From IMG/VR virus record IMGVR_UViG_3300027852_000034, positions 33,461 to 97,460 of that record: a DNA stretch of 64,000 bases. One strand, written 5' to 3'. Position 1 is the stretch's first letter; each line of letters begins with the position of its first letter. Shown here in pieces: positions 12,109 through 32,898 of this stretch. The notes beneath the pieces were generated by a model. That model searched no databases. It saw nothing but the letters and a program-made list of their open reading frames with translations, and had not been told where the DNA came from. The translations under genes were made by a program, and so were the position numbers. The DNA comes from a virus (taxonomy: Duplodnaviria > Heunggongvirae > Uroviricota > Caudoviricetes).

Positions 12109-12151
12109 TGACGCTATATAACGCTGTTTAAGCTGCGTTCTTAACAAAGTA
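12109..12151. repeat. 43-bp inverted-repeat copy A (partner at 32856..32898)
   Basis: TGACGCTATATAACGCTGTTTAAGCTGCGTTCTTAACAAAGTA is the reverse complement of 32856..32898 with one mismatch; both copies intergenic. Confidence 0.8.
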
Positions 12152-12241
12152 ATAGCAGTGTACAACTTGCACATTACCTCAGCGTACACAGCATGTAAAC
12201 AGCAAGGTACTAATTACAAATTCCTGTTGTGAGATCATATA

Positions 12242-12267
12242 GGTTGCTATATACTTTATATAGTACA
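12242..12267 (+). promoter_or_regulatory. class-A promoter-like motif
   Basis: GGTTGCTATATACTTTATATAGTACAAAA; ~45-bp block near-identical to 17915..17960. Confidence 0.55.
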
Positions 12268-12303
12268 AAACGCACTACCAAGCAACTATCACAGGATATA
12301 ATC

Positions 12304-12522
12304 ATGCTAATTACACGTAGATCTATATTAACCCAAATAGAAAGAACTTTGGAGATACCTGTAACTCGTACACAATTGACTGCTTGGATAAATGGTACCT
12401 TTATTCAAATCGCTATGCCTAATCTAACAGCTAACGAAAGAGAATTCCTAATGACAGGGGTTGTCCAGGAAGAATGGGATGAATTTTTCATAGAAGAAGA
12501 TGGAATAGATGCACTGTCATGA
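12304..12522 (+). CDS. hypothetical protein
   Basis: ORF track 12229..12522 trimmed to MLITRRS, the first ATG downstream of the promoter motif. Confidence 0.45.
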   Translation: MLITRRSILTQIERTLEIPVTRTQLTAWINGTFIQIAMPNLTANEREFLMTGVVQEEWDEFFIEEDGIDALS

Positions 12523-12553
12523 CAGATTTTACCATAGTAGTAAGGGTAGCAGT

Positions 12554-12718
12554 ATGAAATGTACTGGTTGTCAACAAAAGAAAAAGGAACTAGATCTACT
12601 CAAAAAACGTATAGAGGAGTTAGAGATAGCCCTCACAGCTATGAATCATCCAGTACAAAATTATATACCAAAATTAGATAAAACTGTGGATGAAATTTTA
12701 CAAAAAGGTGAAAAATGA
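12554..12718 (+). CDS. small coiled-coil protein
   Basis: ORF track 12509..12718 trimmed to MKCTGCQQKKKELD (AGTAAGGGTAGCAGTATG). Confidence 0.4.
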   Translation: MKCTGCQQKKKELDLLKKRIEELEIALTAMNHPVQNYIPKLDKTVDEILQKGEK

Positions 12719-12945
12719 ATCTACAAATGAAAAAAATTGAAGAATGGGAAATAGTAGGTAACGCCCATCATGATCGTAAATTGTTTGATCTTGTACATGA
12801 AGTTCTGATGTCAGAAGACTTTGACATGCTTGACAAAATCAAAGCTCTTAGAAAGCTAGATGCAGCTATGGGAGAAAGCGGCGTAGTTACTGCAAAGGAT
12901 ATTGAAAATTATATCAGAGTTGAATCAGGAGAAGTACCAGTATGA
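12715..12945 (+). CDS. hypothetical protein
   Basis: ORF 76 aa. Confidence 0.5.
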   Translation: MNLQMKKIEEWEIVGNAHHDRKLFDLVHEVLMSEDFDMLDKIKALRKLDAAMGESGVVTAKDIENYIRVESGEVPV

Positions 12946-13163
12946 AAAATGTCGGCGTAAGAATACACTTATGGGAAAAAGGAGACAGAGTACATACGTA
13001 TGAAGGAATAGGAACGGTTATGGAAGATGAAGAAATTCCAAACCTACCTAGCGATGTCTATTACCGAATCGTAAAAGTTAAATTGGATGAAGGCACATCT
13101 AGCCATCCTAACGGAATCATTGACATTGAAAGCCCTGAATCAATATTTTTAATAAATGAATGA
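12942..13163 (+). CDS. hypothetical protein
   Basis: ORF 73 aa. Confidence 0.5.
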   Translation: MKNVGVRIHLWEKGDRVHTYEGIGTVMEDEEIPNLPSDVYYRIVKVKLDEGTSSHPNGIIDIESPESIFLINE

Positions 13164-13470
13164 GAAGGATCCAAAATGTGTAAGGTGCGGGTACTGTTGT
13201 AGCAAAATACCATGCCCCTATGGAAAAAAAGGCACAAACTCTGATGCCTGCATCTACTTAAAAGAAAGTTACACAAATGGAGAGGTTACTATCTATGAGT
13301 GCGAAAGATATGACTACATCAAGCAACAGCCAGGAAGTGACTGGTGCCCTGCGTTCGGAGCTGGATGCAGTTCGTCCCTATTCAACGACAGAAGAGCCAA
13401 TGTCCTGTCTGCTGTCAGAAGAGGAACAGATTCAGTTATTGTTTCTCTTGTTGAAAGCACTGGCTCATAA
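13156..13470 (+). CDS. Cys-rich hypothetical protein (overlaps next ORF in another frame)
   Basis: ORF 104 aa, CVRCGYCCSKIPC; ~190-nt out-of-frame overlap with 13277..13630. Confidence 0.4.
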   Translation: MNEKDPKCVRCGYCCSKIPCPYGKKGTNSDACIYLKESYTNGEVTIYECERYDYIKQQPGSDWCPAFGAGCSSSLFNDRRANVLSAVRRGTDSVIVSLVESTGS

Positions 13471-13630
13471 TGTCCTGTCACGAGATCAATGGATGCTGTC
13501 TATGTACAACATGATCGACACAGCAAAAGCAAAAGGATTTTCTGAAGAACATATAGTCCAATTCGCAAATGATACATTGGAAAAGGTGTTCTCAGAACAA
13601 AAGAAAAACCCTATGAGTACCATGTTCTAA
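13277..13630 (+). CDS. hypothetical protein (start uncertain; possible frameshift partner of 13156..13470)
   Basis: ORF 117 aa; internal starts at ~13295 or ~13400 possible. Confidence 0.4.
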   Translation: MERLLSMSAKDMTTSSNSQEVTGALRSELDAVRPYSTTEEPMSCLLSEEEQIQLLFLLLKALAHNVLSRDQWMLSMYNMIDTAKAKGFSEEHIVQFANDTLEKVFSEQKKNPMSTMF

Positions 13631-13641
13631 AGGAGAATGAA

Positions 13642-14055
13642 ATGGCTGCTGATCTACATATACATGCAATGAAAGATGTTACTGAACATGATTTAAAAGT
13701 GTTCTTTTCACATACTTTAGGTTCTAAATGGTTCGATCTAACCATAGATTCTAAGTATGATGGACCTGGAGAAAAGGCTGTTGCAAAGAGTCCTTCTGTA
13801 TGGATATGTGAAGTATCCTGGTTAAAAGCTGCTCTGTTTGAAGATGCTGAAGAGTTCATTCCTGATCTAGCCTCTGAAATTAGTGATCTTATAGGAGAAG
13901 AATTACCTATAATCGATGACAGTATGATTAAAGCTGTAGAACTAATTTTCAAAAACATGAAAGAACATGAATTTTACAATCAAGCCGATGAAGCCCCTGT
14001 ACTTGATTTCTTGAAAGCGCATAAAGGGCTACGTGCATTTACGGTTAGTTGGTAA
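13642..14055 (+). CDS. hypothetical protein
   Basis: ORF 137 aa, AAGGAGAATGAAATG RBS. Confidence 0.55.
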   Translation: MAADLHIHAMKDVTEHDLKVFFSHTLGSKWFDLTIDSKYDGPGEKAVAKSPSVWICEVSWLKAALFEDAEEFIPDLASEISDLIGEELPIIDDSMIKAVELIFKNMKEHEFYNQADEAPVLDFLKAHKGLRAFTVSW

Positions 14056-14066
14056 AGGAGAATTAA

Positions 14067-14300
14067 ATGTTACCTAAAAAAGGACGTAAAGAAATAACTG
14101 TAGATGGTGTTCTTTACCATTATATGGTTAAAGACCACACTAGAGTAACAATCAGAAACAATGAAACAGGTGAAATTATTAAATGGTATGAAGATCATAA
14201 ACCAAAATGGAATGTTCAAATAAAACCTAGTGATATAGCACAGATTATTAGGATAGAAAATCCTGGCCTTATGCCTAAATTACAAAGGAAACAAAAATGA
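14067..14300 (+). CDS. hypothetical protein
   Basis: ORF 77 aa, AAGGAGAATTAAATG RBS. Confidence 0.5.
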   Translation: MLPKKGRKEITVDGVLYHYMVKDHTRVTIRNNETGEIIKWYEDHKPKWNVQIKPSDIAQIIRIENPGLMPKLQRKQK

Positions 14301-14713
14301 CCCGTGATACTAAAGGCTGGATTATATCAATTACCCTCAGTATACTGGCTGCAGGTTTTGTACTGGCTATTGTAAAAATCATTTCAGACCATATGATCAA
14401 AACCGATAAAACCCTAGCATATTACGAGAATCATAAAGTTCGCAACTTGATTGTTCCAGCTAAATCAAAAGACGGAGTACCATTAGAAGTAACAATTGCA
14501 CACCCTGGTAAATTTAGTGAACAACGCACTTTACTGGTTAGGCGTATAGCTCGTCAAATAGCATCAGAGTTTGTATATAAGGATACAGTTTACGCAGAAA
14601 TTAAGCTTGAAAGGAAGCTAGAAAAGAAAAACATTCCAATTAACATAACCACCATCAAAAAACCACGTAAAGTTTATTTGTGTGACGAGCGTGGCTGTGA
14701 TTTCGTCAACTAA
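14297..14713 (+). CDS. membrane-anchored hypothetical protein
   Basis: ORF 138 aa, N-terminal TM helix. Confidence 0.55.
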   Translation: MTRDTKGWIISITLSILAAGFVLAIVKIISDHMIKTDKTLAYYENHKVRNLIVPAKSKDGVPLEVTIAHPGKFSEQRTLLVRRIARQIASEFVYKDTVYAEIKLERKLEKKNIPINITTIKKPRKVYLCDERGCDFVN

Positions 14714-14724
14714 GGAGAATTCAA

Positions 14725-15033
14725 ATGGGAATCTATATTAATCCTAGCGATACCTTAAAAGAAGATTGGTTACATGAGAATGCTACTAAAGAGCATGATT
14801 TTTTAACCCGTATTGTATGGAACAAAATTCCTAAAAATCATCTACCTGTCTGTCTAGTAGATAACGGAGCATTCACTGCTGCTGGTGTAGCTTTCAATGA
14901 AAAAGAATTTGATCATTTTGATGATCCTTCAGACAGACGTTTAAAACTTTGGTTCATAGTTGAAATTAAGAAACTTCTGGAAGTGCTAGATTCTAATGAT
15001 TGCGAATGTCTTTTGAAAAGACTAAAGGAGTAA
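14725..15033 (+). CDS. hypothetical protein
   Basis: ORF 102 aa, AAGGAGAATTCAAATG RBS. Confidence 0.55.
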   Translation: MGIYINPSDTLKEDWLHENATKEHDFLTRIVWNKIPKNHLPVCLVDNGAFTAAGVAFNEKEFDHFDDPSDRRLKLWFIVEIKKLLEVLDSNDCECLLKRLKE

Positions 15034-15036
15034 TCA

Positions 15037-15477
15037 ATGGTTATAGAAGAATGGGAAACAGAACCTAACTTTTTAGAAGGTGATTTCTACGGTCTACATT
15101 GTCGAATAGTGCGAAATGATCTGGGAACCTTATGTGGATATGTAGCTGTACCTAAAAAACATCCATATTTTAAATACACTGATTACTATGAACCGCCCGT
15201 ATGTGATCTGAAAGTACATGGAGGAATCACGTATTTAGAAATACATAAAGGTCCTGTAAAAGTGTACGGATTTGATTGCGGCCATTTTGGTGACATCTGT
15301 CCTAAATTTCCAAGAAACTTTCCACAACATGGCACATACAAAAATATAGAGTATGTTAAGCAACAGGTCGAAAATTTAGCAAAACAACTTGCAGGGAACG
15401 CCAAAGAAAAAGAGAAAAAGAAAAAAGATATCTGGTTACCTAAACTTTCCTTACAGGAGAACCTTCAGACTAACTAA
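15037..15477 (+). CDS. hypothetical protein
   Basis: ORF 146 aa. Confidence 0.55.
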   Translation: MVIEEWETEPNFLEGDFYGLHCRIVRNDLGTLCGYVAVPKKHPYFKYTDYYEPPVCDLKVHGGITYLEIHKGPVKVYGFDCGHFGDICPKFPRNFPQHGTYKNIEYVKQQVENLAKQLAGNAKEKEKKKKDIWLPKLSLQENLQTN

Positions 15478-15496
15478 ACATGTTGCATTTTTATAA

Positions 15497-15518
15497 GGTA
15501 TAAATTATATATAATGTA
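15497..15518 (+). promoter_or_regulatory. class-A promoter-like motif
   Basis: GGTATAAATTATATATAATGTA upstream of gene 15546. Confidence 0.5.
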
Positions 15519-15545
15519 AGCATGTAACAACACAAGAGGTGCAAC

Positions 15546-15995
15546 ATGATTACTTCAGCAAGTGATCTATTTGAAGAATGGTTGGGAAGTATAAAATATT
15601 CTGCTGATTCTACTGCAGGTAAAAGCTATCCATTCTTTGTACGTGTAGGCTGTGTAAAAATGGCTGCACCACGACATGGAAGATTTCAATACATATTGAA
15701 CTTAGGATATACAGATATAGATAGGATTTTTTCTGGTGCTCCTTTTAAAAAATCTGAGCTTACTTTTGTTTTTCCTGAACGCTATATGGGTGTGCATGAA
15801 CAACGAGGGTTTATGGATACTCTAACCAAACATCCTGACGTTGTATCAATCAAAACAGTGGATATAATTACCTCATCTCCTTTAATACTAGGTGACTTTT
15901 ATAAAGAACAAATCCGTATAATAACTTGGGATGATGATGCAAAGCACAACGGTAATCCTAATTTTGGTAAGGTAAAGATAGAGAAGGCTGTATGA
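15546..15995 (+). CDS. hypothetical protein
   Basis: ORF 149 aa, AAGAGGTGCAACATG RBS. Confidence 0.55.
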   Translation: MITSASDLFEEWLGSIKYSADSTAGKSYPFFVRVGCVKMAAPRHGRFQYILNLGYTDIDRIFSGAPFKKSELTFVFPERYMGVHEQRGFMDTLTKHPDVVSIKTVDIITSSPLILGDFYKEQIRIITWDDDAKHNGNPNFGKVKIEKAV

Positions 15996-16684
15996 TTGCA
16001 TGGCGACATAAGAAAACAGGTAGATGGTTAGTAATTGATGATCGACATACCCATACAAAATTGAGTACCACGTATTCATTTACGGACAACATAAATGCGG
16101 CTTCTACAGGTCTACCTTCTTTCGAAATTAGAAAAGAAGTGGAACCAATAGAAGTAAAGATCACTAGAACAGTAGAAATTATTGAGGAGAAACATATGGC
16201 TACAAGTGATGTACCAGGAGCAAAGAGTGTCCATAACGATGTATTAGCTATGGGGTGTTGGGCAGAACATGAAGATGGCAGTCTTATCCTTGTAGAGTCT
16301 ACAGAAAACGGACGTATTATTTTCTCCGTGTTTGATGTAGCAACAGACCCCATTACTGAATACAGAGATTCGATGCCTGATTCTGGATTCAAACAAAACT
16401 TTTCATGGGATCCTAAAAAGAAAGATTCACTACACTGGACTTGGCACGATAAAACACCTTTCCCCTGGAGCCGTGTTATCAAAGACGGTGCTAAAGATGG
16501 TCTACGCCATGTCCATGCAGATGATCTCCTTAACGCTGCACAAAAAGTAGCAAGATCACGCAAAATGAGATCACAAGATTTTGATCCTGAAAGTATTGAT
16601 CATATGCAGGATATTCAACGCAATAAACCTGCACGTTCTATCATTACTAGAATCCAAAATGCTATTGATCAATTAAGAGGATAA
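15992..16684 (+). CDS. hypothetical protein (230 aa)
   Basis: Long ORF in + operon; preferred over antisense 201-aa shadow ORF 15958..16563. Confidence 0.6.
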   Translation: MIAWRHKKTGRWLVIDDRHTHTKLSTTYSFTDNINAASTGLPSFEIRKEVEPIEVKITRTVEIIEEKHMATSDVPGAKSVHNDVLAMGCWAEHEDGSLILVESTENGRIIFSVFDVATDPITEYRDSMPDSGFKQNFSWDPKKKDSLHWTWHDKTPFPWSRVIKDGAKDGLRHVHADDLLNAAQKVARSRKMRSQDFDPESIDHMQDIQRNKPARSIITRIQNAIDQLRG

Positions 16685-16686
16685 AT

Positions 16687-17010
16687 ATGACTGACGTACC
16701 TATTGCCTCTGAGCATAAAAATACAGGCAAAGTTAAAACAGATCTGCACTGTACCGATTGCAGTAAAAACTTTATTGCCACTATAGATTATGACATAGAT
16801 GGCGACCATGTAATTGTATGCCCTTACTGTGGACATGAACATTGTAGAGTAATAGAAAACGGCATCGTTACCGGACAAAGATGGTCATCCAGAAACAGTA
16901 ATCCTACAGAAGCTAGAACACAAAAACTATGGACAGATGATAGTAGAAAAATACAAACCTCTAGTGCCTCTCATTTCCTACGGGAAAGATGGTTGAATAT
17001 GGGAGTATGA
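16687..17010 (+). CDS. Zn-ribbon hypothetical protein
   Basis: ORF 107 aa, CTDC...CPYCGHEHC. Confidence 0.55.
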   Translation: MTDVPIASEHKNTGKVKTDLHCTDCSKNFIATIDYDIDGDHVIVCPYCGHEHCRVIENGIVTGQRWSSRNSNPTEARTQKLWTDDSRKIQTSSASHFLRERWLNMGV

Positions 17011-17011
17011 T

Positions 17012-17925: not shown

Positions 17926-17931
17926 CATTAA

Positions 17932-21207: not shown

Positions 21208-22176
21208 TTAACGACTTTTTCTATCAAGTTCCTTAGCAGTCATGGATAATATATCCCTATAAGTAATACCTTGGTTATGTGACATAAGGATATGTAAAAG
21301 TTTATCGGGACCACCTTCATGACCTACAATTTCAGGTACCTTTTCAGATAGATAGGTTTCCACTTTATCCTTTAAATTTTTATCCTGTACAGAAGAGTGT
21401 TCTATAACACCTGAAAGGATGTCCTCTTCTTTTTTTGCATCGTAGTCAAACAAAAAAGTTATACCTATAACCTTCCTACCTGATTTCTTCAACTCCATGG
21501 AGATATTATAAATAGGTAAAGAAACAGCTTGAATCTCTTTTATAGATTTTTCTAGTACCTTAGACTTAAAATTTCTAAAATCTTTATAACTAACATTATC
21601 TTGAACATCCATCAATCTATGCAACTCTATCAATTCAAAATATCTAGATTTATGATTACTGTTTTTATATTGATATAAAAGCTGGTATAATCTTATCGCA
21701 TGTTTAGATCGAAGTGGTGCCAACATATACATCTGCCATTTGGTATATTGGGAAAGATCTTTCGCTTTCTCCCACAGATCATAATTCATACGCATATTAA
21801 ATTCTTTAGTAACAGGATCATAACCTATTCTAGTAAATACAGGATATTGATCCCATCTTCCATGTTCGTTAAGTTCCTCAAAATAAACATCCCGAAGCTT
21901 TCCAACTAATACAGAATTGCGCACAGTCAAAGCCTTAGTACTAGAAATATGGAATTGTTCTACTAACTCATGGATAGGGAAACATATCAAAGACTTTTCT
22001 ATATAAGAATCTTGTTTTTGTAATTTAGAGATATACACAGCAAAGAACTTTAAAGCTATTGGTGAATACCTGCGTAACATCATCTCATTTAGAGAATTAG
22101 GCATACAAACACAAGAAGATTTTGTACCTACCCTCAGATTATTTTTTTGCATAAAAACACCCCAAATTAAGGACAC
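21208..22176 (-). CDS. rep: Rep_3-family replication initiator (iteron-binding Rep)
   Basis: LRSKHAIRLYQLLYQYK...YKDFRNFKSKVLEKSIKEIQ...KKSGRKVIGITFLFD matches the Rep_3 signature (LRSKYSIRLYELL / kkGRkv.gieF); iterons immediately upstream of its start. Confidence 0.7.
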   Translation of the reverse strand: MSLIWGVFMQKNNLRVGTKSSCVCMPNSLNEMMLRRYSPIALKFFAVYISKLQKQDSYIEKSLICFPIHELVEQFHISSTKALTVRNSVLVGKLRDVYFEELNEHGRWDQYPVFTRIGYDPVTKEFNMRMNYDLWEKAKDLSQYTKWQMYMLAPLRSKHAIRLYQLLYQYKNSNHKSRYFELIELHRLMDVQDNVSYKDFRNFKSKVLEKSIKEIQAVSLPIYNISMELKKSGRKVIGITFLFDYDAKKEEDILSGVIEHSSVQDKNLKDKVETYLSEKVPEIVGHEGGPDKLLHILMSHNQGITYRDILSMTAKELDRKSR

Positions 22177-22329
22177 TTTTTGTATATGTTTAGGAGACTA
22201 TACACTAATTTAACTATCGTATAAACTCCTATATTAACGAAACGTATTGTAACCTTCTTTACACATTACACATAACACTTCAGTATACCTTAGTACACTA
22301 TGACAACCCTAAAATGCCCTGATCTAGAA

Positions 22330-22407
22330 CCTCCTTTACACATTACCGTAACCTCCTTTACACATTACCGTAACCTCCTTTACACATTACCGTAACCTCC
22401 TTTACAC
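22330..22407. repeat. iterons: 3.5 tandem copies of 22-bp CCTCCTTTACACATTACCGTAA (plus a degenerate copy at ~22252-22270)
   Basis: Perfect direct repeats, unit length about two helical turns, located 150 bp upstream of rep start. Confidence 0.85.
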
Positions 22408-22439
22408 GTATGGAGCTAAAACTTCTTTAAATTCAACAA

Positions 22440-22660
22440 CTTCCTAGGTCTAAAATATTAAAACTTTAAAGTTTTAAAAGAGTATTTCAGAACATACATA
22501 TATTCTTCATACAAAATCTACAGCAGATCTAAACGAAAGAATCTACTTTATTCTTTTAGTTTATAGTCTTATAAGAATACAATAGGCTTCGCCTATTTGA
22601 TCCATCATGATCTACTGCGTAGATCTATTCTGTATCAATTTTAATTTTTCTTTGAGAGTA
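22440..22660. other. AT-rich putative DNA unwinding region of an iteron origin
   Basis: ORF-free very AT-rich stretch with palindromes (AAACTTTAAAGTTTTAAAAG; GATCTACTGCGTAGATC) adjacent to iterons. Confidence 0.5.
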
Positions 22661-22678
22661 CAGGTATAACTATTGACA
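22661..22678 (+). promoter_or_regulatory. class-B promoter-like motif CAGGTATAACTATTGACA
   Basis: Same AGGTATAACTATTG core as the promoters of the Y-RNA arrays; upstream of gene 22717. Confidence 0.5.
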
Positions 22679-22716
22679 CAGAAAACTGAAATTAGAAAAC
22701 TGAGATTTGAGATTGA

Positions 22717-24338: not shown

Positions 24339-24370
24339 AAAACTAATAACATTTGAAAAGGAGAAGTGAT

Positions 24371-25288
24371 GTGACTACACTTGCAAAAGAAGAATTGTTA
24401 CACCTTAAAGTTAATGAGGTTGCTATAGTAGAAGGTCGTAACAAAAGGTTTGATGAAGGTGATCTAAATGAACTAGCTGATAGCATCGAACATAACGGTG
24501 TTTCAAATCCTATAAAGGTTCAGAAAGTAGCTGGTAAATATCAGCTAGTAGATGGTCATCGCAGACGTGCATCCTGTGAAATTCTACGCAAACGATATGT
24601 TGGTAAAAAAGTACCTGTAGTAAATAACTACCCTATCACCTCACTCCCCGCAAGAATTATAAACTCTGATGCATCCGAAACAGATATCGTTATCAGCATG
24701 TTGGTATCGAATGACGGCAAACCTTTTCTTCCTCTTGAAGAGGCTCAGATGTTTCAAGATCTACATAACAGCGGAATGAAGAATGATGAGATTGCAAAAA
24801 AGATAGGCAAGTCCGTAGCTCATGTATCTGACAGGTTATCATTGTTAAACGCCTCAGATGCGGTTAAGAACGCCGTAGAAGATGGATCTATTTCTACAAG
24901 GGATGCAGTAGCTATATCTCGCCGCATCAAAGATGAGGGCGCACAAGGGGATATGGTGAAACGTATTCAAACAGAAGGCAATAGCGTTATCAATACAGAG
25001 TTATTGAAAGGACGCTTGAAAAAAGAACAGTGGGAGACAGCAGAAGTCTTATATGAAGACTTTATGGCAAGCAAAATGCATCCTGAAGTAACAGCGCAGC
25101 TCAAAAAACCTGGCAATGATATTGATAAAGTGCTCTTACAGATTATAAAGCGTCCTGATTTCGAGTACATTTATAACTTGGGACGTATGGCAGGAGCCGG
25201 TGCTATGGCGCATCTAAACATTACCGAAATACTGAACAAACTGCACACTCGCAACGGTGGTATTGAAGGTATTTATAAGGAGAAGTAA
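24371..25288 (+). CDS. ParB-like nuclease-domain protein
   Basis: ORF track 24353..25288, GTG start after AAAAGGAGAAGTGAT; NPIKVQKVAGKYQLVDGHRRRAS is a ParB/Srx N-terminal domain motif. Confidence 0.65.
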   Translation: MTTLAKEELLHLKVNEVAIVEGRNKRFDEGDLNELADSIEHNGVSNPIKVQKVAGKYQLVDGHRRRASCEILRKRYVGKKVPVVNNYPITSLPARIINSDASETDIVISMLVSNDGKPFLPLEEAQMFQDLHNSGMKNDEIAKKIGKSVAHVSDRLSLLNASDAVKNAVEDGSISTRDAVAISRRIKDEGAQGDMVKRIQTEGNSVINTELLKGRLKKEQWETAEVLYEDFMASKMHPEVTAQLKKPGNDIDKVLLQIIKRPDFEYIYNLGRMAGAGAMAHLNITEILNKLHTRNGGIEGIYKEK

Positions 25289-26434: not shown

Positions 26435-28978
26435 ATGGCGACTTTCGTAAAAATCTCAAAAGACCAGTTTTCAGAATGGGCTGATGGTCAATTTGGGTTT
26501 AACAATTGGGAATATAAGAAACCAGATTTCGGCATAGAACTAGTACTTGTAGCTGCTGCCAATATCCCTCAATTTGAATATCACATATACACCACTTTAA
26601 CTGAAGAAGCTGGTGAAACCAGAGACAGTGGCACAGATGCCATCCGTTGTGTACTACTTGATACTGAATGTAATAAACCTGCTGGACATACAAAGAAGGT
26701 CCTTCGTGTAATAGGTAAAACAACTGTATGGGAACGTCTTGAACAAAGATTGCAATCTTTAAATGAAATTATGGAGGACTTGGAGTTTTGTAACAAATGC
26801 GGTTCTCATATGGTAGAACGTGAAAACAGAAAAACTGGTCATAAGTTTATGGGATGCAGTGCATACCCTAATTGTGGAAAAGAAAAAAGAGAATATCCTC
26901 TTATCACTAAAAAAGAAGAAGAGGATATAATCCTACAGGATAAAAACCTATCTGAATATGAGGAGCCCTGTGATTCGGAAAATTTTGCAGGGACCAAAAA
27001 CCCCAATTGCAATTTAGTCTCTGAGGCAGAACTTGTTTCTACTTCAGACTATCCTCATGTACAGTTTCCGTTTCCTAGTTTCAATCGTATGCAAAGTACG
27101 ATCATGAAACACGGTTACTGGAACCAGGATATAAATCTTGTGCTTGGTACTACAACATCATCAGGTAAAACTGTTGCTGCTGAAATGTTTATGGCAGAGA
27201 CATTAAAACAAGGAGACACAGTAGTATACGTTTCGCCTCTTAAATCATTGACACAGGAAAAGTATGATGAATGGAGCGAAAGATACTCAGACTACAGCAT
27301 TTGCATATTAACAGGTGACTATACCCTGACAGATAAAAGAACAAAAGAACTAAACGATGCCGATATAGTCTGCTTAACATCTGAAATGATTGATAGCAGA
27401 ACCCGTAATCATCAATCAGAAAAGTCAGACTGGATGTTTGATGTTAAGTTGGTGATTGTTGATGAAACCCACATCATTAGCACAAACAGAGGACATGCTG
27501 TTGAAGCTGGTCTTATGCGATTTGCTAAATTGGTACCAGCAGCTAGATTACTGTGTTTATCTGCTACGATGCCTAATGTTACAGATTTCAAACAATGGCT
27601 AACAGCACTGAACAACAAAGAGACTGCTGTAATTAACAGTGATTGGCGTCCTGTTCATCTTGAATGGCATTATGTAAAACATCAGACACAAGGTTCCTAC
27701 TACGAGTGTCAGGCTAGTAAACAAAATCTAGCAATGCAGCTAATTGAATCAAAACCTAATGAAAAATTCCTAGTCTTTGTACACGACAAAAATACTGGTC
27801 GTCAACTTACCAGCAAGATTCAAAGTTCTGGTATAGAGACTTACTTTCATAATGCTGACCTTGCATTAAATGATAGATTGGAAATAGAAACCCAATTTGC
27901 TGACAAAAAGACAGGTATCAGAGTAATGGTATCTACTTCGACACTTGCTTGGGGACGAAACTTACCTGCAAAAAACGTTATCATAACTGGTGTACACAGA
28001 GGTCTAAATGATGTAGACGAATTGGATATCATCCAGATGGCTGGTCGTGCAGGTCGTGCCGGAGTTGATAAAGAAGGTGATGTATTCCTAATTTGTGACA
28101 ATCCTCACTTTTGGGAACACACAGTCAACAATCCTCGTAGAGTGACTAGTACATTATTAGATGAAGGCATACTAGGATTCCATATACTTGCAGAAGTAAA
28201 GAACAACCAAATTTGGAATCACAGTACTTTGATGAAATGGTTTGAAAGAACCTTAGCTACTCTGCAAATGGAAGTACAAAGTGATCTTATAAATAAGGTT
28301 ATAGCATCCTTACAGCAGATGGGTATGCTAGTAATAGATAATGATAAATATAAGATTACACGTTTAGGTCGTGTGTCAGCTACGCTATACTATCTGCCTG
28401 ATGATATTTATCATTGGTCTATGAACTTCAGTAAGATAAGCGAAAATAACCTGTGGGATAGTGATCTAGCAGTGTCATATGTATTAGGTACAACACCGTC
28501 ATTAGATTTAGGTTATGTACCCCGCGCAATGGATGACGATGTTGCAGAGTACACAGCTCATGTAAACAGGATATGGCCTGGTGATGCACACTATGTAAAA
28601 CGTTCCGTAATAGCCACACAACTGTATGATCTACTTACACAAGGAAAATCTTCAGCTTATGTCAGGACTGCTCAGTACGATGTAGAAAGAATATCGCAAG
28701 CACTTACTTGGATTGATGGTATCAGACATTGGAATAACAGAAATTTCTGGAAAGCTTTACCGATACGTATTAAATACGGTGTAGGTAAAGAACTTGTAGA
28801 TCTTTGTATGCTGCCAGGTGTAGGTTCTGTCAGAGCGAAAAAACTCTATGCTGAGAACATTCGATCTCTTAATGATGTAATGAAAGCAGAACATGTTAGA
28901 CTAAAGCGTGTATTAGGTGAAGCGGGAGCAGCAAAAGTTAAGACTGCTGCAAAGAAAATGCTAGGTGAGGTTGCATGA
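26435..28978 (+). CDS. SF2 DEAD/DEAH-box helicase with N-terminal topoisomerase-type Zn ribbon
   Basis: 847 aa; CNKCGSHMVER...GCSAYPNCG Zn ribbon; Walker A TTSSGKT; motif II VIVDETH; motif III SATMPN; motif VI QMAGRAGRAG. Confidence 0.8.
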   Translation: MATFVKISKDQFSEWADGQFGFNNWEYKKPDFGIELVLVAAANIPQFEYHIYTTLTEEAGETRDSGTDAIRCVLLDTECNKPAGHTKKVLRVIGKTTVWERLEQRLQSLNEIMEDLEFCNKCGSHMVERENRKTGHKFMGCSAYPNCGKEKREYPLITKKEEEDIILQDKNLSEYEEPCDSENFAGTKNPNCNLVSEAELVSTSDYPHVQFPFPSFNRMQSTIMKHGYWNQDINLVLGTTTSSGKTVAAEMFMAETLKQGDTVVYVSPLKSLTQEKYDEWSERYSDYSICILTGDYTLTDKRTKELNDADIVCLTSEMIDSRTRNHQSEKSDWMFDVKLVIVDETHIISTNRGHAVEAGLMRFAKLVPAARLLCLSATMPNVTDFKQWLTALNNKETAVINSDWRPVHLEWHYVKHQTQGSYYECQASKQNLAMQLIESKPNEKFLVFVHDKNTGRQLTSKIQSSGIETYFHNADLALNDRLEIETQFADKKTGIRVMVSTSTLAWGRNLPAKNVIITGVHRGLNDVDELDIIQMAGRAGRAGVDKEGDVFLICDNPHFWEHTVNNPRRVTSTLLDEGILGFHILAEVKNNQIWNHSTLMKWFERTLATLQMEVQSDLINKVIASLQQMGMLVIDNDKYKITRLGRVSATLYYLPDDIYHWSMNFSKISENNLWDSDLAVSYVLGTTPSLDLGYVPRAMDDDVAEYTAHVNRIWPGDAHYVKRSVIATQLYDLLTQGKSSAYVRTAQYDVERISQALTWIDGIRHWNNRNFWKALPIRIKYGVGKELVDLCMLPGVGSVRAKKLYAENIRSLNDVMKAEHVRLKRVLGEAGAAKVKTAAKKMLGEVA

Positions 28979-29139
28979 TATTAGTACGGGCAATAATATT
29001 CGGAATTCTTTTCGTAACAATTATGGATTTACAAGGTTTGTCGATCCCTCAATTATTTGTATTGGCTGTAATATTGTCAGGATCGACAGACGTTGTTTAC
29101 ATCATTATCCTATTGATAACAAAACAAAAAGAGGATTGA
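28975..29139 (+). CDS. small hydrophobic membrane protein (54 aa)
   Basis: ATG overlaps helicase TGA (ATGA); MILVRAIIFGILFVTIMDLQGLSIPQLFVLAVILSG; preferred over ORF-track 28965..29174. Confidence 0.4.
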   Translation: MILVRAIIFGILFVTIMDLQGLSIPQLFVLAVILSGSTDVVYIIILLITKQKED

Positions 29140-29221
29140 AATTACCAGTATTTTGTATTATAATAAACCTATAAATTGCTTGAGGATTTAACCGCTACAT
29201 CACAATAAGGGGACATTCAAA

Positions 29222-29812
29222 ATGGATTATCTTTCCATTTATTCCTTCGAGGGTCCAATCGAAGGATACGTAATCAATTTCCTACAAAAAAATTACTGGA
29301 GGGTAAAAAATTATTTTGATTATGAAGATGCGGTACAAGAAGCACGGTATACTTTCACGCTTCTTTTAAGGAGAATGGAGAGAAACAATTCATTGATTGA
29401 AAATGCAAAGCATCTTATGTCCTTATTTAAAAGTGCTTGGACACGTCATTTTCACACTCTATCTAATCGTGATACCAAACGTATAGATTTTGCAATTTCT
29501 AATTACACAACTGAAGATCATGATGATTGGATATTAGACTCAATTAATCTAGATGCAAGTTCCCATAACTTAGGATATTTAGAAGTAGTAATTGATCAAG
29601 CACCTAAAGAAGTACGACAAGTTTTAAATCTTTTACTTACAGCACCTAAAGAGATGTTAGGAATGGCTGTAGAAAGTTGGGGTAACAACAACAAAAGAAA
29701 CTCTACTATAACCAATGAATTTCTGTGTCGCATGTTAGGTTACAATCATAAAGAAATAGATTTAATAAAGAACGTACGGAACTACTTACTGACAGATCAA
29801 ACACAGGTATAA
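29222..29812 (+). CDS. hypothetical protein (possible regulatory/sigma-like, unverified)
   Basis: ORF 196 aa, AAGGGGACATTCAAAATG RBS. Confidence 0.5.
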   Translation: MDYLSIYSFEGPIEGYVINFLQKNYWRVKNYFDYEDAVQEARYTFTLLLRRMERNNSLIENAKHLMSLFKSAWTRHFHTLSNRDTKRIDFAISNYTTEDHDDWILDSINLDASSHNLGYLEVVIDQAPKEVRQVLNLLLTAPKEMLGMAVESWGNNNKRNSTITNEFLCRMLGYNHKEIDLIKNVRNYLLTDQTQV

Positions 29813-29820
29813 TTTACACG
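29803..29820 (+). promoter_or_regulatory. class-B promoter-like motif ACAGGTATAATTTACACG
   Basis: AGGTATAAT core upstream of gene 29848. Confidence 0.45.
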
Positions 29821-29847
29821 TAATACAAACCTATAGGAGTAATACAC

Positions 29848-30444
29848 ATGAGTACTGTTTTAAAGCAGCTAGAAGATTTAACAGGTGTCACGTACACTGG
29901 CACTGAAGCCCAGGACTTCCTGAATAGCATGATTCGGGCAGTAAATGATTTATCTGAAGAGGATTGGAACAAACTTCCTGCTGAAGGTCAGCAATGGTTC
30001 AATGACGCAGCCAAGGTAATCAGTGAAGATGATGATGCTGAGATTCCCAGCATTAAAGGCATGGAAGAAGTAAAGGAGCCTAAGAAGGAAGAAAAGAAAG
30101 ATGATAAACCAGAAAAAAAGAAGGAAAAGGAGAAAGTTAAAAAAGATCCTGAACCAGCTAAGAAAGGGGAATCTGAAGAATCAGAGGATGAACCAGAAAA
30201 GAAAGAACCCAAGAAACGGCGTGTAGGTCCGTCTGCTGGTTCAATCGTGCGTTCTATCTTACTGGATAACAAAGACCTCTCACTTGACGAAGTGATGGAA
30301 GAACTTAAAACCCGTGATGTAGATATGAAACGATCATCTGCTCAAGTTATCTATCAAGGCACTACCAGGACTATCGAAGCCATTATCGAACATGGTGATG
30401 TGAAAGGAAAAGATGGTAAGGTGGTTGTTAGTAAAGCTGGTTAA
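29848..30444 (+). CDS. lysine/glutamate-rich histone-H1-like protein
   Basis: ORF 198 aa, KKEEKKDDKPEKKKEKEKVKKD low-complexity basic/acidic tract. Confidence 0.5.
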   Translation: MSTVLKQLEDLTGVTYTGTEAQDFLNSMIRAVNDLSEEDWNKLPAEGQQWFNDAAKVISEDDDAEIPSIKGMEEVKEPKKEEKKDDKPEKKKEKEKVKKDPEPAKKGESEESEDEPEKKEPKKRRVGPSAGSIVRSILLDNKDLSLDEVMEELKTRDVDMKRSSAQVIYQGTTRTIEAIIEHGDVKGKDGKVVVSKAG

Positions 30445-30449
30445 ACTAT

Positions 30450-30560
30450 AGGCATCTAGTGTACGCTTCCGGAAATACCCAATACCGGGCCTCGCAAGGG
30501 CAGGAGTATCACGCAGCCGCAAGCTGAAAGTCAGGGTTCGACTCCCTGAGATGCCTACCA
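30450..30560 (+). ncRNA. tRNA-like small RNA (~110 nt) with 7-bp acceptor-like stem, T-arm and 3' CCA
   Basis: 5' AGGCATC pairs with 3' GATGCCT; CAGGGTTCGACTCCCTG T-arm; ends A-CCA; two CGCAAG hairpins internally; too long for a canonical tRNA; followed by terminator. Confidence 0.4.
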
Positions 30561-30562
30561 TA

Positions 30563-30598
30563 AGGCCAGTAGAGTACTATTTTTACTGGCCTTTTTAA
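30563..30598 (+). terminator. rho-independent terminator
   Basis: AGGCCAGT...ACTGGCCT hairpin + T5. Confidence 0.7.
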
Positions 30599-30822
30599 TG
30601 GAGAACATAATGTCATATCCAAAACCTAAAAGTACTGAATCAATTACAATTCTTCCTACTAATAACGGCTTCAGTGTACAACCAGAAATGAAGGCACATG
30701 AATGTTCACCAATTTCAGATATTAATGTATTCAATAGATTTGAGGATCTAGTACTCTTTTTAGAGGAGTTGTATTTTCCCAAGGATTCTAATAAAAAATC
30801 TAAAGGCCCTGGAATAGGTTGA
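30598..30822 (+). CDS. hypothetical protein
   Basis: ORF 74 aa. Confidence 0.4.
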   Translation: MENIMSYPKPKSTESITILPTNNGFSVQPEMKAHECSPISDINVFNRFEDLVLFLEELYFPKDSNKKSKGPGIG

Positions 30823-30847
30823 AAGTGCTGGTAATGCATAAAGCAAA

Positions 30848-30893
30848 TGCTTTACAAACCGTATTTTGTAAGTAAACTTACAGTTGTAAAGCA
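30848..30893. promoter_or_regulatory. palindromic operator/parS-like candidate upstream of parB
   Basis: TGCTTTACAA ... TTGTAAAGCA inverted repeat enclosing the GTAAGTAAACTTAC palindrome, 40 bp upstream of ParB start. Confidence 0.4.
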
Positions 30894-30929
30894 ATTGTTT
30901 TATATCACACAAAATTACTGGAGAAGGGC

Positions 30930-31766
30930 ATGAACGACAATACACAAAATGAAAACTTAGATTATGTAGCTATGCAAAGGATACAACCTAACAGATTTCA
31001 ACCTCGTACAGACTTCCAACAAAAAGAACTTGAAGAACTTGCAGATAGTATTGAACAGCAAGGTCTTATTCAACCAATTATTTTGCGTCCTATTGATGAC
31101 GGTGCTGAAGATATTGATTTTGAATTAGTAGCTGGTGAAAGACGCTGGCGCGCTATGCAGCTATTAGGTAAACGGCGTATACGAGCCATTATAAAAGAAG
31201 ATTATAATGATGAGGATTCAATGCAGGCAGCACTTATCGAGAACCTGCAACGTGAAGATCTAAACCCGATGGAAGAAGCTGAATCCATTAAAAGTTTTAT
31301 GACCAAAATGAATCTGACTCAGGAACAGGCTTCCCAACGTTTAGGTAAGTCTCGTTCTTACATTTCAAATATCACTCGTATAGTCAAACTTCCTGATGAA
31401 GTTAAAGCCTCAATTAGGTCAGGTGAACTTGAAAAATGGCATGCAATGGTATTAGTAGGAGCACCAAAAGAAGAGATTACAACACTGGCTACGAAAGTTA
31501 TTAAGGGTAGTTGGTCTGTGGATACTCTGAAGAAAAAGGTTGCTTCGCTTGATCCAAAGAAAGCAGCAAAGAAGGCTAAGAAAGAGAAAATATCTCCACG
31601 CCAGCCCAGTACTAGAAATCTACTTTTGATTGAGGCTCCTTCGGCAGCAGCATTGAAAGCATTGGAAGAACAGTTGAAAGCTGAAGATGGTTACCATATC
31701 TGGCACGGTGTAACTGCATTAAAACATGCAAAAGGTCTGCTGGATATTAAGAAAGAAGATAAGTAA
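30930..31766 (+). CDS. parB: ParB/Spo0J-like partition protein
   Basis: LIQPIILRP...ELVAGERRWRA ParB box; HTH RLGKSRSYISNITR. Confidence 0.75.
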   Translation: MNDNTQNENLDYVAMQRIQPNRFQPRTDFQQKELEELADSIEQQGLIQPIILRPIDDGAEDIDFELVAGERRWRAMQLLGKRRIRAIIKEDYNDEDSMQAALIENLQREDLNPMEEAESIKSFMTKMNLTQEQASQRLGKSRSYISNITRIVKLPDEVKASIRSGELEKWHAMVLVGAPKEEITTLATKVIKGSWSVDTLKKKVASLDPKKAAKKAKKEKISPRQPSTRNLLLIEAPSAAALKALEEQLKAEDGYHIWHGVTALKHAKGLLDIKKEDK

Positions 31767-31786
31767 CCGTTACTACGAGGTAACTA

Positions 31787-31980
31787 GTGTGACTATACAA
31801 ACTACAGACTTGATTGGTATGCTTAGAGATAAAGCAGAAGAGTTTGAACTTGCAGGAGATTTAGAACTGTTCGCACTTCTTGATATAGCATCCGATAGAT
31901 TGCAGGGTGCTATGACTTTGTTAGCACAACTCCAGTATGATATAGAAACAGGTACGGATTCAATAGAAAGAGGGTGTTAA
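31787..31980 (+). CDS. hypothetical protein (start uncertain)
   Basis: ORF track 31726..31980 overlaps parB; trimmed to a GTG/ATG after the parB stop. Confidence 0.35.
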
Positions 31981-32181
31981 TACTTTTTAGAATCTCAAGT
32001 CCTTATTTTGTTGCAGGTGTAGTTGTACAGTATAGAAGAGTTGTACGTGCTGCACCTATTCTGCATTACATGAAGGGTTGGAGTGTGCGACAAGTTAAAG
32101 ATTACTGCTTGTATAAGCACTGGAAAATAGAACGTTACTAGCACTTGGTACAGACGTTACACAAGAAACAGGAATTTGATA

Positions 32182-32811
32182 ATGGCTAGATTAAATGGTG
32201 CCCCTCCAGGATTTGTATTTGAACCTCCACCGTTACCAAAAACAAAGACTAAACGTAAAGCAAAAGCAGATAGAATATGTGCAGGTTGTGGTTACATAAG
32301 CAAAACAAAAAATCATTTCAAATCTTTAAATTCAAAAGAATTCAATGAAAAGGAAATGTGGTGTAAAGGTTGTAGACTATATTTTAATATAGATCAACCA
32401 TTTGGTTCAGCTCCTATGTACCCTGATAAAGCTTTAAGAAAGCTTGAAGTATTGAAAGAAAAAGGATATTTATTAGCAACAAAATCAGGAAAGTTCGGAA
32501 CTCCTGAAGGTCTATCTGTACAAATAGATGCATGGGATATTTTCAAACCTATACGAATAGGTTCAACTAAGAAAGGTGATAATACTACAAAAGGAAGTAT
32601 GGCTTTTTTTACTGTGGATATATTAATTGGCAATGTACCACTAACACTTCATCCCTGGGAGTTTGGAACAATAACTTGGATAGACCTTATGCAATTTAGA
32701 AAAGAAGGAGCTTACATAGAACAATATGTTTCAACTGATGATGTTGGAGGATACTGGGCACCTACAAAAAAATTTAGAAAAAAACTGAATGAATTGTTTG
32801 GAGAAAGGTAA
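32182..32811 (+). CDS. hypothetical protein
   Basis: ORF track 32176..32811, ACAGGAATTTGATAATG. Confidence 0.55.
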   Translation: MARLNGAPPGFVFEPPPLPKTKTKRKAKADRICAGCGYISKTKNHFKSLNSKEFNEKEMWCKGCRLYFNIDQPFGSAPMYPDKALRKLEVLKEKGYLLATKSGKFGTPEGLSVQIDAWDIFKPIRIGSTKKGDNTTKGSMAFFTVDILIGNVPLTLHPWEFGTITWIDLMQFRKEGAYIEQYVSTDDVGGYWAPTKKFRKKLNELFGER

Positions 32812-32855
32812 AGTACGTTTCACACTAGGAAAACAACAAAGCTATAACTATATAC

Positions 32856-32898
32856 TACTTTGCTAAGAACGCAGCTTAAACAGCGTTATATAGCGTCA
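32856..32898. repeat. 43-bp inverted-repeat copy B (partner at 12109..12151)
   Basis: See copy A. Confidence 0.8.

What the first reader, a model, noticed from the sequence alone, without database searches (positions are those of the whole stretch)
12109..32898. 43-bp near-perfect inverted repeats bracketing a 20.7-kb segment that contains the Rep/iteron and ParB genes
TGACGCTATATAACGCTGTTTAAGCTGCGTTCTTAACAAAGTA at 12109-12151 recurs as its reverse complement at 32856-32898 with 1 mismatch in 43. Both copies lie in ORF-free gaps of ~180 bp.

A long IR pair flanking a replication/partition module could mark an invertible segment, the termini of an inserted plasmid or transposon-like cassette, paired binding sites of a regulator, or convergent bidirectional terminators.
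Basis: seen in the sequence. Interest (0 to 1): 0.5.

Follow-up and report, generated by a model that had tools for sequence, protein, structure and literature searches.

The report
Origin-centred inverted repeat in a phage
Two almost identical 46-base sequences lie in opposite orientation 20.7 kb apart, equally far on either side of a plasmid-type replication origin in a large uncultured phage; they look like an old duplicated spacer kept identical by recombination, not like the ends of a mobile or switchable cassette.

Summary
The repeat is real: 12109-12151 matches the reverse complement of 32856-32898 at 42/43, and at 44/46 over 12109-12154 / 32853-32898. None is expected by chance. Three independent assemblies of the same roughly 158-kb phage carry it. 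At least 147 kb of that genome holds only these two copies.

It is not a pair of transposon or plasmid ends. There is no transposase or recombinase domain in 8.8-61.3 kb and no target duplication. Relatives lacking the right copy keep gene order across that boundary, and a relative that carries the orthologous left copy is collinear across the left one.

It is not a terminator, promoter, parS site or Rfam RNA either. No inverted isomer was seen, but reads could not be examined.

A relative about 75% identical carries the orthologous left copy, changed at 8 of 46 positions. Within this genome the two cores are 44/46 identical, while the homologous flanks are only 40-54% identical. The duplication therefore seems old and its core homogenised.

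My best reading is a recombining inverted-repeat pair maintained by gene conversion; the phage encodes RecA-like and gp32-like proteins. A crossover would flip the block without cutting an operon. The pair's midpoint falls in the Rep3/iteron origin spacer (about 2% by chance, noticed post hoc). Function is unproven and interest is moderate.

The parts
12109..12154 (+). Left copy of the repeat core (TGACGCTATATAACGCTGTTTAAGCTGCGTTCTTAACAAAGTAATA). It starts 53 nt after the stop codon of gene 11618-12055 and ends 72 nt before a promoter-like TTGTGA-17-TATACT.
   Evidence: An orthologous copy in relative L018 (6286-6331) matches at 38/46.
32853..32898 (-). Right copy of the repeat core, in inverted orientation. 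It starts 41 nt after the stop codon of orphan gene 32182-32811 (the 43-nt match itself starts 44 nt after it) and ends 55 nt before a promoter-like TTTACA-17-TACAAT that precedes the GTP cyclohydrolase I gene.
12085..12108 (+). Decayed outer flank of the duplicated unit on the left. In register it matches the right flank at 13/24 and L018 at 21/24.
   Evidence: background P(>=13/24) = 0.004.
32899..32922 (-). Decayed outer flank of the duplicated unit on the right. It matches the L018 left spacer at 15/24. The inner flank 32838-32852 matches L018 at 11/15.
21208..22176 (-). Rep3-family replication initiator (WH1 and WH2 domains).
22251..22407 (+). Iteron array: four perfect 22-bp units at 22328-22407 plus one degenerate unit at 22251.
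22458..22477 (.). A 20-bp perfect AT-rich palindrome in the origin spacer (22177-22716). The midpoint of the repeat pair (22503.5) lies 36 bp from its centre.
31767..33002 (+). Stretch present here but absent from relatives L007, L009 and L015, where ParB2 is followed directly by FolE. It holds two orphan ORFs and the right repeat copy.
12227..12255 (+). Promoter-like site just inside the left copy. It is the first promoter of the bracketed block and belongs to a repeated promoter cassette also found at 10630 and 17917.
32954..32982 (+). Promoter-like site just outside the right copy, upstream of FolE.

Best explanation
The two sequences are the surviving core of an older inverted duplication of an intergenic spacer at least 85 nt long. 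The genome is a roughly 158-kb uncultured phage whose genes are nearly all co-directional. The two cores are kept almost identical because they recombine with each other. Most simply this is gene conversion by the phage's own homologous-recombination machinery (RecA/UvsX-like, gp32-like, Mre11-like and endonuclease VII-like proteins), not a dedicated invertase. Each copy sits between the end of one transcription unit and the next promoter. A crossover would therefore invert the 20.7-kb Rep/iteron-ParB-helicase block without cutting any operon. Because the origin lies at the midpoint, such an inversion would not move the origin either, which is the one geometry in which an inverted repeat is harmless. 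What is shown: the repeat, its copy number, its non-coding position, its symmetry about the origin spacer, an identical core beside decayed flanks, the orthologue in a relative, and the absence of transposase, recombinase, terminator, promoter and parS features. What is inferred: that the identity is maintained by gene conversion, that inversion isomers arise, and that the symmetry matters.
For: Within this genome the cores match at 44/46, but the flanks in the same register match at only 13/24 (outer) and 6/15 (inner). The orthologous left copy in L018, which is about 75% identical genome-wide, differs at 8/46. That is no better conserved than its surrounding spacer at 83%. The right copy's flanks resemble L018 (15/24 and 11/15) more than they resemble the window's own left flanks. 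Only two copies exist in at least 147 of 158 kb: the window itself, an unbroken 88-kb Logan contig upstream, and L099. No further copy appears in 1.74 Mb of related loci. Recombination genes are present: RecA, gp32, Metallophos/Mre11-like and PDDEXK, plus an endonuclease VII-like protein. The copies bracket whole transcription units. The midpoint 22503.5 lies inside the 540-nt origin spacer, and only 2% of the window's non-coding nucleotides would give that result. In bacteria, origin-symmetric inversions mediated by repeats are the tolerated and dominant class (PMC9584773).
Against: No inverted isomer was observed. Three assemblies and every relative are collinear, and the inverted-junction pattern is absent from JGI contigs. 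That collection did not return the JGI contigs known to carry this phage, so the negative is weak. The flank homology rests on short anchored stretches. Free local alignment of the flanks alone is not significant (p = 0.06 and 0.4), so a recent precise 46-nt copy is not excluded. The right-hand spacer of the L018 lineage could not be retrieved, so co-evolution of both copies is inferred from one genome. A 35-nt exact run is short for RecA-type recombination. The symmetry was noticed post hoc.
Confidence: 0.4

Rival explanations
1. A recent, neutral copy-paste with no maintained function. A roughly 46-nt patch was copied once, for example by a template switch between the two forks of a bidirectional bubble, or it arrived with the 1.2-kb orphan-gene insertion. 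It simply has not had time to diverge.
For: The right copy lies in a lineage-specific insertion. The left copy lies in an orphan-rich variable region. The element is no more conserved between phages than neutral spacer. Flank-only alignments are not significant when unanchored. Comparable long-range intergenic inverted repeats occur sporadically in distant relatives: L019 and L043, 2 of about 85 loci.
Against: Anchored flank similarity to the orthologous spacer (15/24 and 11/15) argues that the copied unit was longer and is old. A sharp 44/46 core beside flanks at 40-54% is not what a single recent event leaves.
Confidence: 0.2
2. RNA-level device. Both spacers are transcribed rightwards, so the two transcripts carry perfectly complementary 43-46-nt stretches that pair in trans. 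This could create a double-strand RNase target or an antisense block that couples expression of the two operon boundaries. Selection for complementarity would keep the copies identical.
For: All genes around both copies are on the + strand, and no terminator lies between the stop codon and the element. The predicted inter-spacer duplex is -88 kcal/mol, against -30 for shuffles. Identity with sharp edges fits a duplex boundary.
Against: There is no expression data. There is no local structure or Rfam match. There is no promoter that would make a discrete small RNA. Complementarity is automatic for any inverted repeat in a co-directional genome.
Confidence: 0.15
3. Protein-binding sites read in the same polarity by the two forks leaving the origin, or by anything spreading from it. 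Examples are Ter-like fork barriers, boundaries for ParB/KorB-type sliding clamps, or roadblock or insulator sites at operon ends.
For: The copies are inverted and equidistant from the iterons (10.2 and 10.4 kb), so each fork meets the same sequence in the same orientation. The element has composite internal symmetry: CGCTATATAACG is a 10/12 palindrome, and there are AACGC-N10-GCGTT and TTAAG-N7-CTTAA motifs. Two CTPase-type ParB homologues are encoded in the block. Both sites lie at operon boundaries.
Against: No Tus or RTP domain was found. There is no parS-like palindrome, and no sub-motif recurs elsewhere. The single mismatch breaks the TTAAG/CTTAA symmetry in the right copy. Binding sites do not normally need 44/46 identity. 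GC skew shows no fork signature. The relative L018 has changed 8 of 46 positions.
Confidence: 0.15
4. A programmed invertible segment driven by a site-specific recombinase encoded elsewhere in the 158-kb genome.
For: The inverted sites have a possible core (5-bp arms around an asymmetric 7-bp spacer, CTGCGTT). About 94 kb of the genome was not domain-scanned.
Against: No resolvase, invertase or integrase domain occurs in 8.8-61.3 kb, whereas known invertases sit next to their segment. The segment holds about 50 ORFs forming complete operons, not alternative gene ends. All assemblies show one orientation. The right-copy mismatch weakens the arms.
Confidence: 0.07
5. Terminal inverted repeats of a 20.7-kb transposon or integrated plasmid carrying Rep and ParB.
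For: There are inverted ends beginning TG...CA, and a replication/partition gene set lies inside.
Against: There is no transposase. There is no target duplication...TTAGATT on the left versus CAGACAA... on the right. Base composition is uniform. The same promoter cassettes occur inside and outside the block. Rep, ParB1, helicase, ParB2, FolE and ligase are syntenic in relatives without the repeat, so the right end cuts through conserved gene order. L018 is collinear across the left end.
Confidence: 0.03

Closest known systems
Origin-symmetric inversions mediated by inverted repeats in bacterial chromosomes (replication-associated structural rearrangements; PMC9584773; Eisen et al. 2000 as cited there)
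   Same: An inverted repeat pair lies on opposite sides of a bidirectional-type origin at equal distance. Homologous recombination is the presumed mechanism. A symmetric inversion leaves the origin position unchanged.
   Different: Here the replicon is a phage, the arms are only 46 nt (rRNA operons or IS elements serve in bacteria), the interval is 20.7 kb, and no inversion has been observed between relatives.
PeSL promoter/stem-loop cassettes of T4-type phages (PMC2839356, PMC4122927)
   Same: Short repeated intergenic sequences in orphan-rich variable regions of large lytic phages, serving as substrates for homologous recombination.
   Different: PeSLs are many direct copies containing an early promoter plus a stem-loop, and they produce indels and swaps. 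This element has two inverted copies and contains neither a promoter nor a stem-loop.
Site-specific invertible segments of phages (Mu G/gix-Gin, P1 C/cix-Cin) - from general knowledge
   Same: Short inverted sites flank a segment in a phage genome.
   Different: Those segments are 3-4 kb, hold alternative tail-fibre gene ends, and have the serine invertase gene adjacent. None of that applies here.
Yeast 2-micron plasmid inverted repeats (FLP/FRT; Futcher double-rolling-circle model) - from general knowledge
   Same: An inverted repeat pair on a circular replicon whose recombination interacts with bidirectional replication from a single origin.
   Different: The 2-micron repeats are 599 bp with a dedicated recombinase, and the origin lies asymmetrically next to one repeat, which the model requires. 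Here the origin is central.
Polar replication terminators (Tus-Ter; B. subtilis RTP with its 47-48-bp imperfect inverted repeats IRI/IRII) - from general knowledge
   Same: Composite sites of about 45 bp used in inverted orientation, so that forks meet them with defined polarity.
   Different: Those sites lie opposite the origin and next to the terminator-protein gene. No Ter-like sequence and no Tus or RTP homologue was found here.

Membership tests
Transposon / inserted element with terminal inverted repeats | Terminal inverted repeats at both ends | tested here: met
   42/43 inverted repeat.
Transposon / inserted element with terminal inverted repeats | Transposase or integrase encoded by or next to the element | tested here: not met
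   Pfam scan of all ORFs in 8.8-61.3 kb found none. The region 0-8.8 kb has only ORFs of 170 aa or less and was not scanned.
Transposon / inserted element with terminal inverted repeats | Target-site duplication flanking the ends | tested here: not met
   Outer flanks are ATTACTTAGATT and CAGACAATAAAC, with no direct repeat.
Transposon / inserted element with terminal inverted repeats | Presence or absence as a unit among relatives | tested here: not met
   Synteny runs across the right end in L007, L009 and L015, and across the left end in L018.
Site-specific invertible segment (Gin/Cin/Hin-type or tyrosine-recombinase type) | Inverted crossover sites | tested here: met
   Inverted 46-nt cores.
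Site-specific invertible segment (Gin/Cin/Hin-type or tyrosine-recombinase type) | Dedicated recombinase adjacent to or within the segment | tested here: not met
   No Resolvase, Recombinase or Phage_integrase domain in 8.8-61.3 kb. The rest of the genome was not available.
Site-specific invertible segment (Gin/Cin/Hin-type or tyrosine-recombinase type) | Both orientations present in populations | tested here: inconclusive
   Three assemblies show one orientation.
Intrinsic (bidirectional) terminator | G+C-rich hairpin followed by a T/U run | tested here: not met
   No terminator call at either site. Fold z-scores range from -0.8 to +0.5.
parS / ParB centromere site | A 14-16-bp palindrome, usually several copies near parB | tested here: not met
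   The best matches to TGTTTCACGTGAAACA have 3 mismatches and lie elsewhere, at chance level. The element is not palindromic, and no palindrome of 14 bp or more recurs.
Polar replication terminator (Tus-Ter / RTP-Ter) | Inverted polar sites plus a cognate contrahelicase protein | tested here: inconclusive
   The geometry fits: inverted and equidistant from the origin. No Tus or RTP domain was found. Fork arrest is not testable with these tools.
PeSL-type recombinogenic regulatory cassette | Composite early promoter plus stem-loop, many direct copies in variable regions | tested here: not met
   The location in variable regions is met. However, the core has no promoter or stem-loop, and there are only two copies, inverted.
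Origin-symmetric recombining inverted repeats | Inverted repeats on opposite sides of, and equidistant from, the origin | tested here: met
   The distances from the repeat copies to the iterons are 10,177 nt (left) and 10,449 nt (right). The midpoint lies in the origin spacer.
Origin-symmetric recombining inverted repeats | Evidence that the copies exchange sequence (concerted evolution) or invert | tested here: inconclusive
   The contrast between core and flanks, and the orthologue comparison, indicate homogenisation. No inversion was seen, and the second genome's right copy is missing.
Known RNA family | Match to an Rfam covariance model | tested here: not met
   No hit above chance at either spacer.

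The most novel reading that the evidence does not exclude
The repeat pair is a functional device tied to the origin it straddles. The two forks of a Rep3-initiated bubble reach the two copies at the same moment and in the same polarity. The copies would then act either as polar pause or barrier sites that delimit an origin-proximal domain, or as a fork-synchronised recombination switch. Such a switch could flip the origin block or convert theta replication into concatemer-producing replication. This would be a phage analogue of Ter traps or of the 2-micron flip, but with a symmetric geometry not described before.
Probability: 0.1. Interest if true: 0.75.

Novelty: new member of a known kind. 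Interest (0 to 1): 0.35.

Why it matters
If the copies do recombine, this phage carries a built-in substrate for inverting its whole Rep/ParB/helicase block around the origin. It would be a compact, testable case of origin-symmetric rearrangement outside bacterial chromosomes. It would also show how short intergenic repeats are kept identical in large lytic-type phages. If the symmetry about the origin is functional, it would point to an undescribed way of coupling replication forks to fixed sites in a phage genome. If neither holds, the finding is an ordinary dispersed repeat, and the useful result is negative: the Rep/ParB block is core phage sequence, not an inserted plasmid or transposon.

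Tried and rejected
**Rejected features**
- Terminator: no hairpin or T-run. Terminator-like hits across 5-45 kb are at chance level.
- Sigma-70 promoter inside the element: none on either strand.
- Known RNA: nothing in Rfam.
- parS: rejected.
- Recurring sub-motifs, as expected for a regulon: none.
- Small protein gene across the element (shared LLRTQLKQRYIAS): rejected. There is no ribosome-binding site, the starts differ, the left copy has a premature stop, and there are 3 synonymous against 7 non-synonymous changes versus L018.
- Transposon: rejected on the absence of a transposase, the absence of a target duplication, and synteny.
- Replication signature in GC skew: none; the skew follows transcription.

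**Link to L009**
- L009 has hairpin elements that share GTTTAAGCTGYGTTCT with this element at 15/16, reached by 2 of 500 shuffles.
- This is not significant when all related loci are searched (E = 2.8), so I dropped it.

**Searches that led nowhere**
- GenBank phages, near mode.
- IMG/VR exact and degenerate element patterns.
- GTDB genomes.
- JGI metagenome contigs for the inverted junction.
- JGI metagenome contigs for the 20-mer core: one chance hit inside an unrelated gene.
- Homologues of the 211-aa right-flank protein: none.
- Two look-ups lost to wrong start codons.
- IMG/VR relatives found through a helicase profile are too distant, at 49% identity or less.
- Neighbouring proteins have no informative PHROG or Pfam annotation.

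Full report
**Observation**

The 43-mer at 12109-12151 recurs as its reverse complement at 32856-32898 with one mismatch. There is no other match with up to 3 mismatches in the window, and none in 100 dinucleotide-preserving shuffles. In register, the near-identity runs for 46 nt (44/46; 12109-12154 against 32853-32898) and then stops sharply.

Both copies lie in non-coding spacers.
- The left core starts 53 nt after the stop codon of gene 11618-12055 and ends 72 nt before a promoter-like TTGTGA-17-TATACT.
- The right 43-nt match starts 44 nt after the stop codon of gene 32182-32811 and ends 55 nt before a promoter-like TTTACA-17-TACAAT, which precedes a GTP cyclohydrolase I gene.

There is a Rep3 initiator on the minus strand (21208-22176), four perfect 22-bp iterons (22328-22407) and two ParB homologues. 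It also holds a Ski2-like helicase.

**What the sequence comes from**

Exact-protein look-ups place the window on a 158,116-bp ENA contig. The window runs without a break across the point where that contig begins and ends, so the genome is circular or terminally redundant, at about 158 kb. The same phage appears in a Logan assembly and in a JGI sample.

Nearly all genes are on the + strand. The window encodes ligase, a sliding clamp, PolA, a clamp loader, a gp32-like protein, a RecA-like protein, Mre11-like and PDDEXK nucleases, a FEN, DnaB and an SNF2 helicase. No GenBank phage is close: PolA is 36% identical at best.

All three assemblies have identical sequence at both repeat copies. The Logan k=31 contigs end at 12138 and 32893 and start at 32869. 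That is exactly what a 35-nt exact repeat produces, so the repeat is not an assembly artefact.

**Copy number**

- Neither the element nor any of its sub-motifs recurs in the window.
- The Logan contig that ends in the left copy is 87,982 bp long and unbroken. The 88 kb upstream therefore holds no further copy of the exact run.
- The 7 kb beyond the window end has none.
- That covers at least 147 of 158 kb with exactly two copies.
- A profile of the known copies finds nothing else in 1.74 Mb of related loci.

**Not a mobile cassette**

Pfam scans of every ORF from 8.8 to 61.3 kb found no transposase, integrase or invertase. The outer flanks show no target duplication. Composition is uniform, and the same promoter cassettes occur inside and outside the block.

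The comparative evidence is the most telling. Relatives were found through helicase homologues at 50-58% identity. Loci L007, L009 and L015 keep the order ParB1, DUF7007, helicase, ParB2, FolE, ligase. In them ParB2 is followed directly by FolE, across a spacer of about 50-240 nt that carries a canonical terminator in L007 and L009.

The right copy therefore sits in a 1.2-kb lineage-specific stretch (31767-33002) holding two orphan ORFs, one of which has no homologue at all. The "boundary" of the 20.7-kb block cuts through conserved gene order. The left copy lies in an orphan-rich variable region. A closer relative, L018 (about 75% nucleotide identity), is collinear across it.

**Not a terminator, promoter, RNA family, parS site or small gene**

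- The element has no significant fold in either orientation (z from -0.8 to +0.5).
- It has no terminator or sigma-70 promoter call.
- It has no Rfam match.
- It has no resemblance to parS, and no recurring palindrome exists.
- A short ORF crosses the element in all three known copies. It lacks a ribosome-binding site, uses different starts, is truncated in the left copy, and shows no excess of synonymous change.

**The informative comparison**

L018 carries the orthologous left element (L018 6286-6331) within a spacer that aligns at 83%. It differs from the window's left copy at 8 of 46 positions, so the element is no better conserved between phages than the spacer around it. An adjacent promoter-proximal block (12176-12260) is in fact far better conserved.

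The three-way comparison, in register, is (WL = window left copy, WR = window right copy, LL = L018 left copy):

| Region | WL-WR | WL-LL | WR-LL |
|---|---|---|---|
| Core (46 nt) | 44/46 | 38/46 | 37/46 |
| Outer flank (24 nt) | 13/24 | 21/24 | 15/24 |
| Inner flank (15 nt) | 6/15 | 5/15 | 11/15 |

The background identity is 26.5%, and P(>=13/24) = 0.004.

The copied unit was therefore longer than the core, at least 85 nt. The right copy's flanks preserve states seen in L018 rather than in the window's own left spacer. Only the core is identical within the genome. An old duplication with a homogenised core is the simplest reading. That means either sequence exchange between the two copies (gene conversion) or selection for their identity or complementarity.

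Two caveats apply. Unanchored alignment of the flanks alone is not significant. The right-hand spacer of the L018 lineage could not be retrieved.

**Geometry**

The left copy lies 10,177 nt from the iterons and the right copy 10,449 nt from them. The pair's midpoint (22503.5) falls inside the 540-nt origin spacer, 36 bp from the centre of a 20-bp perfect palindrome.

If the right copy could have landed in any non-coding gap of the window, only 2% of those positions would give this result. I noticed this post hoc, so I treat it as suggestive.

Two consequences follow by inference. Both forks of a bidirectional bubble would meet the same sequence in the same polarity at the same time. And an inversion between the copies would leave the origin where it is and would cut no operon, because the first promoter of the block lies just inside the left copy and the last stop codon lies just inside the right copy.

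In bacteria, origin-symmetric, repeat-mediated inversions are the prevalent tolerated rearrangement (PMC9584773).

**Inversion itself was not seen**

All assemblies and all relatives are collinear. A pattern specific to the inverted junction found nothing in JGI contigs. That collection did not return the JGI contigs known to carry this phage, so the negative is weak. k=31 graphs cannot link across a 35-nt repeat.

**How unusual it is**

In 1.6 Mb of related phage loci, only two others have long-range inverted repeats with exact arms of 24 nt or more.
- L019 has 52 nt at 85%, 6.9 kb apart. Both arms are intergenic and bracket the genes DUF932, helicase, primase and HTH_36.
- L043 has about 550 nt, 13 kb apart.

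Such pairs are therefore rare but not unique. Their sequences are unrelated to this one. An apparent 15/16 match to hairpin elements in L009 does not survive a search at that scale.

**Verdict**

The idea that the repeats mark a mobile, plasmid-derived or programmed invertible Rep/ParB cassette is not supported.

The best-supported account is a recombining inverted-repeat pair (confidence 0.4). It is an old duplicated spacer whose core is homogenised, probably by the phage's own homologous recombination system, in the one geometry where it does no harm.

The rivals are:
- a recent neutral copy (0.2);
- trans RNA pairing between the two rightward transcripts (0.15; duplex -88 kcal/mol);
- polar protein-binding or fork-barrier sites (0.15);
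- a recombinase-driven switch (0.07);
- transposon ends (0.03).

Read-level junction counts and the right spacer of the L018 lineage would decide among most of these.

Noticed in passing
window 58488-64000 (L099 11388-13043 = window 62358-64013): A TROVE/Ro60-vWA protein gene starts at about 62358. It follows a mostly ORF-free stretch holding 4-5 tRNAs, tRNA-like fragments and paired repeats (D7, D9, D10, D12, D14), which could be Y-RNA-like partners. ARAGORN also reports a 'tRNA-???' with a 2-nt anticodon at 60277-60346.
   Followed up: no
L015 21469-22459 and L015 1436-3055: A relative also encodes Ro60/TROVE. It carries an array of seven repeats of about 78 nt (AAAGAGTTGATTAAGTAATCAGCGGATTCAT...), which are possibly structured RNAs.
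   Followed up: no
L009 5434-5511 and 20386-20462: Two direct copies of a strongly folding hairpin element. The stems are 15 bp (ACAGGAGGTTTAAGC/GCTTAAACCTCCTGT) and the loops about 47 nt, with fold z of -4.6 and -4.1. They sit in spacers of a related phage.
   Followed up: partly
L018 13274-13463: A perfect 24-nt inverted repeat encloses 142 nt in an intergenic gap of the closest relative. It looks like a miniature inverted-repeat or inverton-like element.
   Followed up: no
L019 5260-5311 / 12176-12227; L043 188-750 / 13904-14466: Other long-range inverted repeats occur in distant relatives. L019's two arms are both intergenic and bracket the genes DUF932, helicase, primase and HTH_36.
   Followed up: partly
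window 12176-12260: The spacer block just inside the left repeat is nearly identical to L018, including a 28-nt exact run, ACCTCAGCGTACACAGCATGTAAACAGC. It is far better conserved than the repeat itself, and it includes the promoter-like site.
   Followed up: partly
window 1341, 4046, 5747, 7959, 26339, 37420; and 10630, 12227, 17917: There are two families of repeated promoter-like cassettes: TTGT...AGGTATACTTTATA... and TTGTGAGATCATATAGGTT.CTATATACTTTATATAGTAC. They sit upstream of operons.
   Followed up: no
window 22458-22477: A 20-bp perfect AT-rich palindrome, TTAAAACTTTAAAGTTTTAA, lies next to the iterons.
   Followed up: no
window 24353-25288 and 30930-31766: Two ParB homologues carry arginine-rich motifs resembling the ParB CTP-binding motif (GHRRRAS and GERRWRA), but no ParA-type ATPase occurs in 8.8-61.3 kb. 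The pair is conserved in relatives.
   Followed up: no
window 44058-46634: The family A DNA polymerase has an N-terminal uracil-DNA-glycosylase-like domain. A FolE gene, a DpdA-like 523-aa protein and (in relatives) a radical-SAM gene nearby hint at 7-deazaguanine DNA modification.
   Followed up: no
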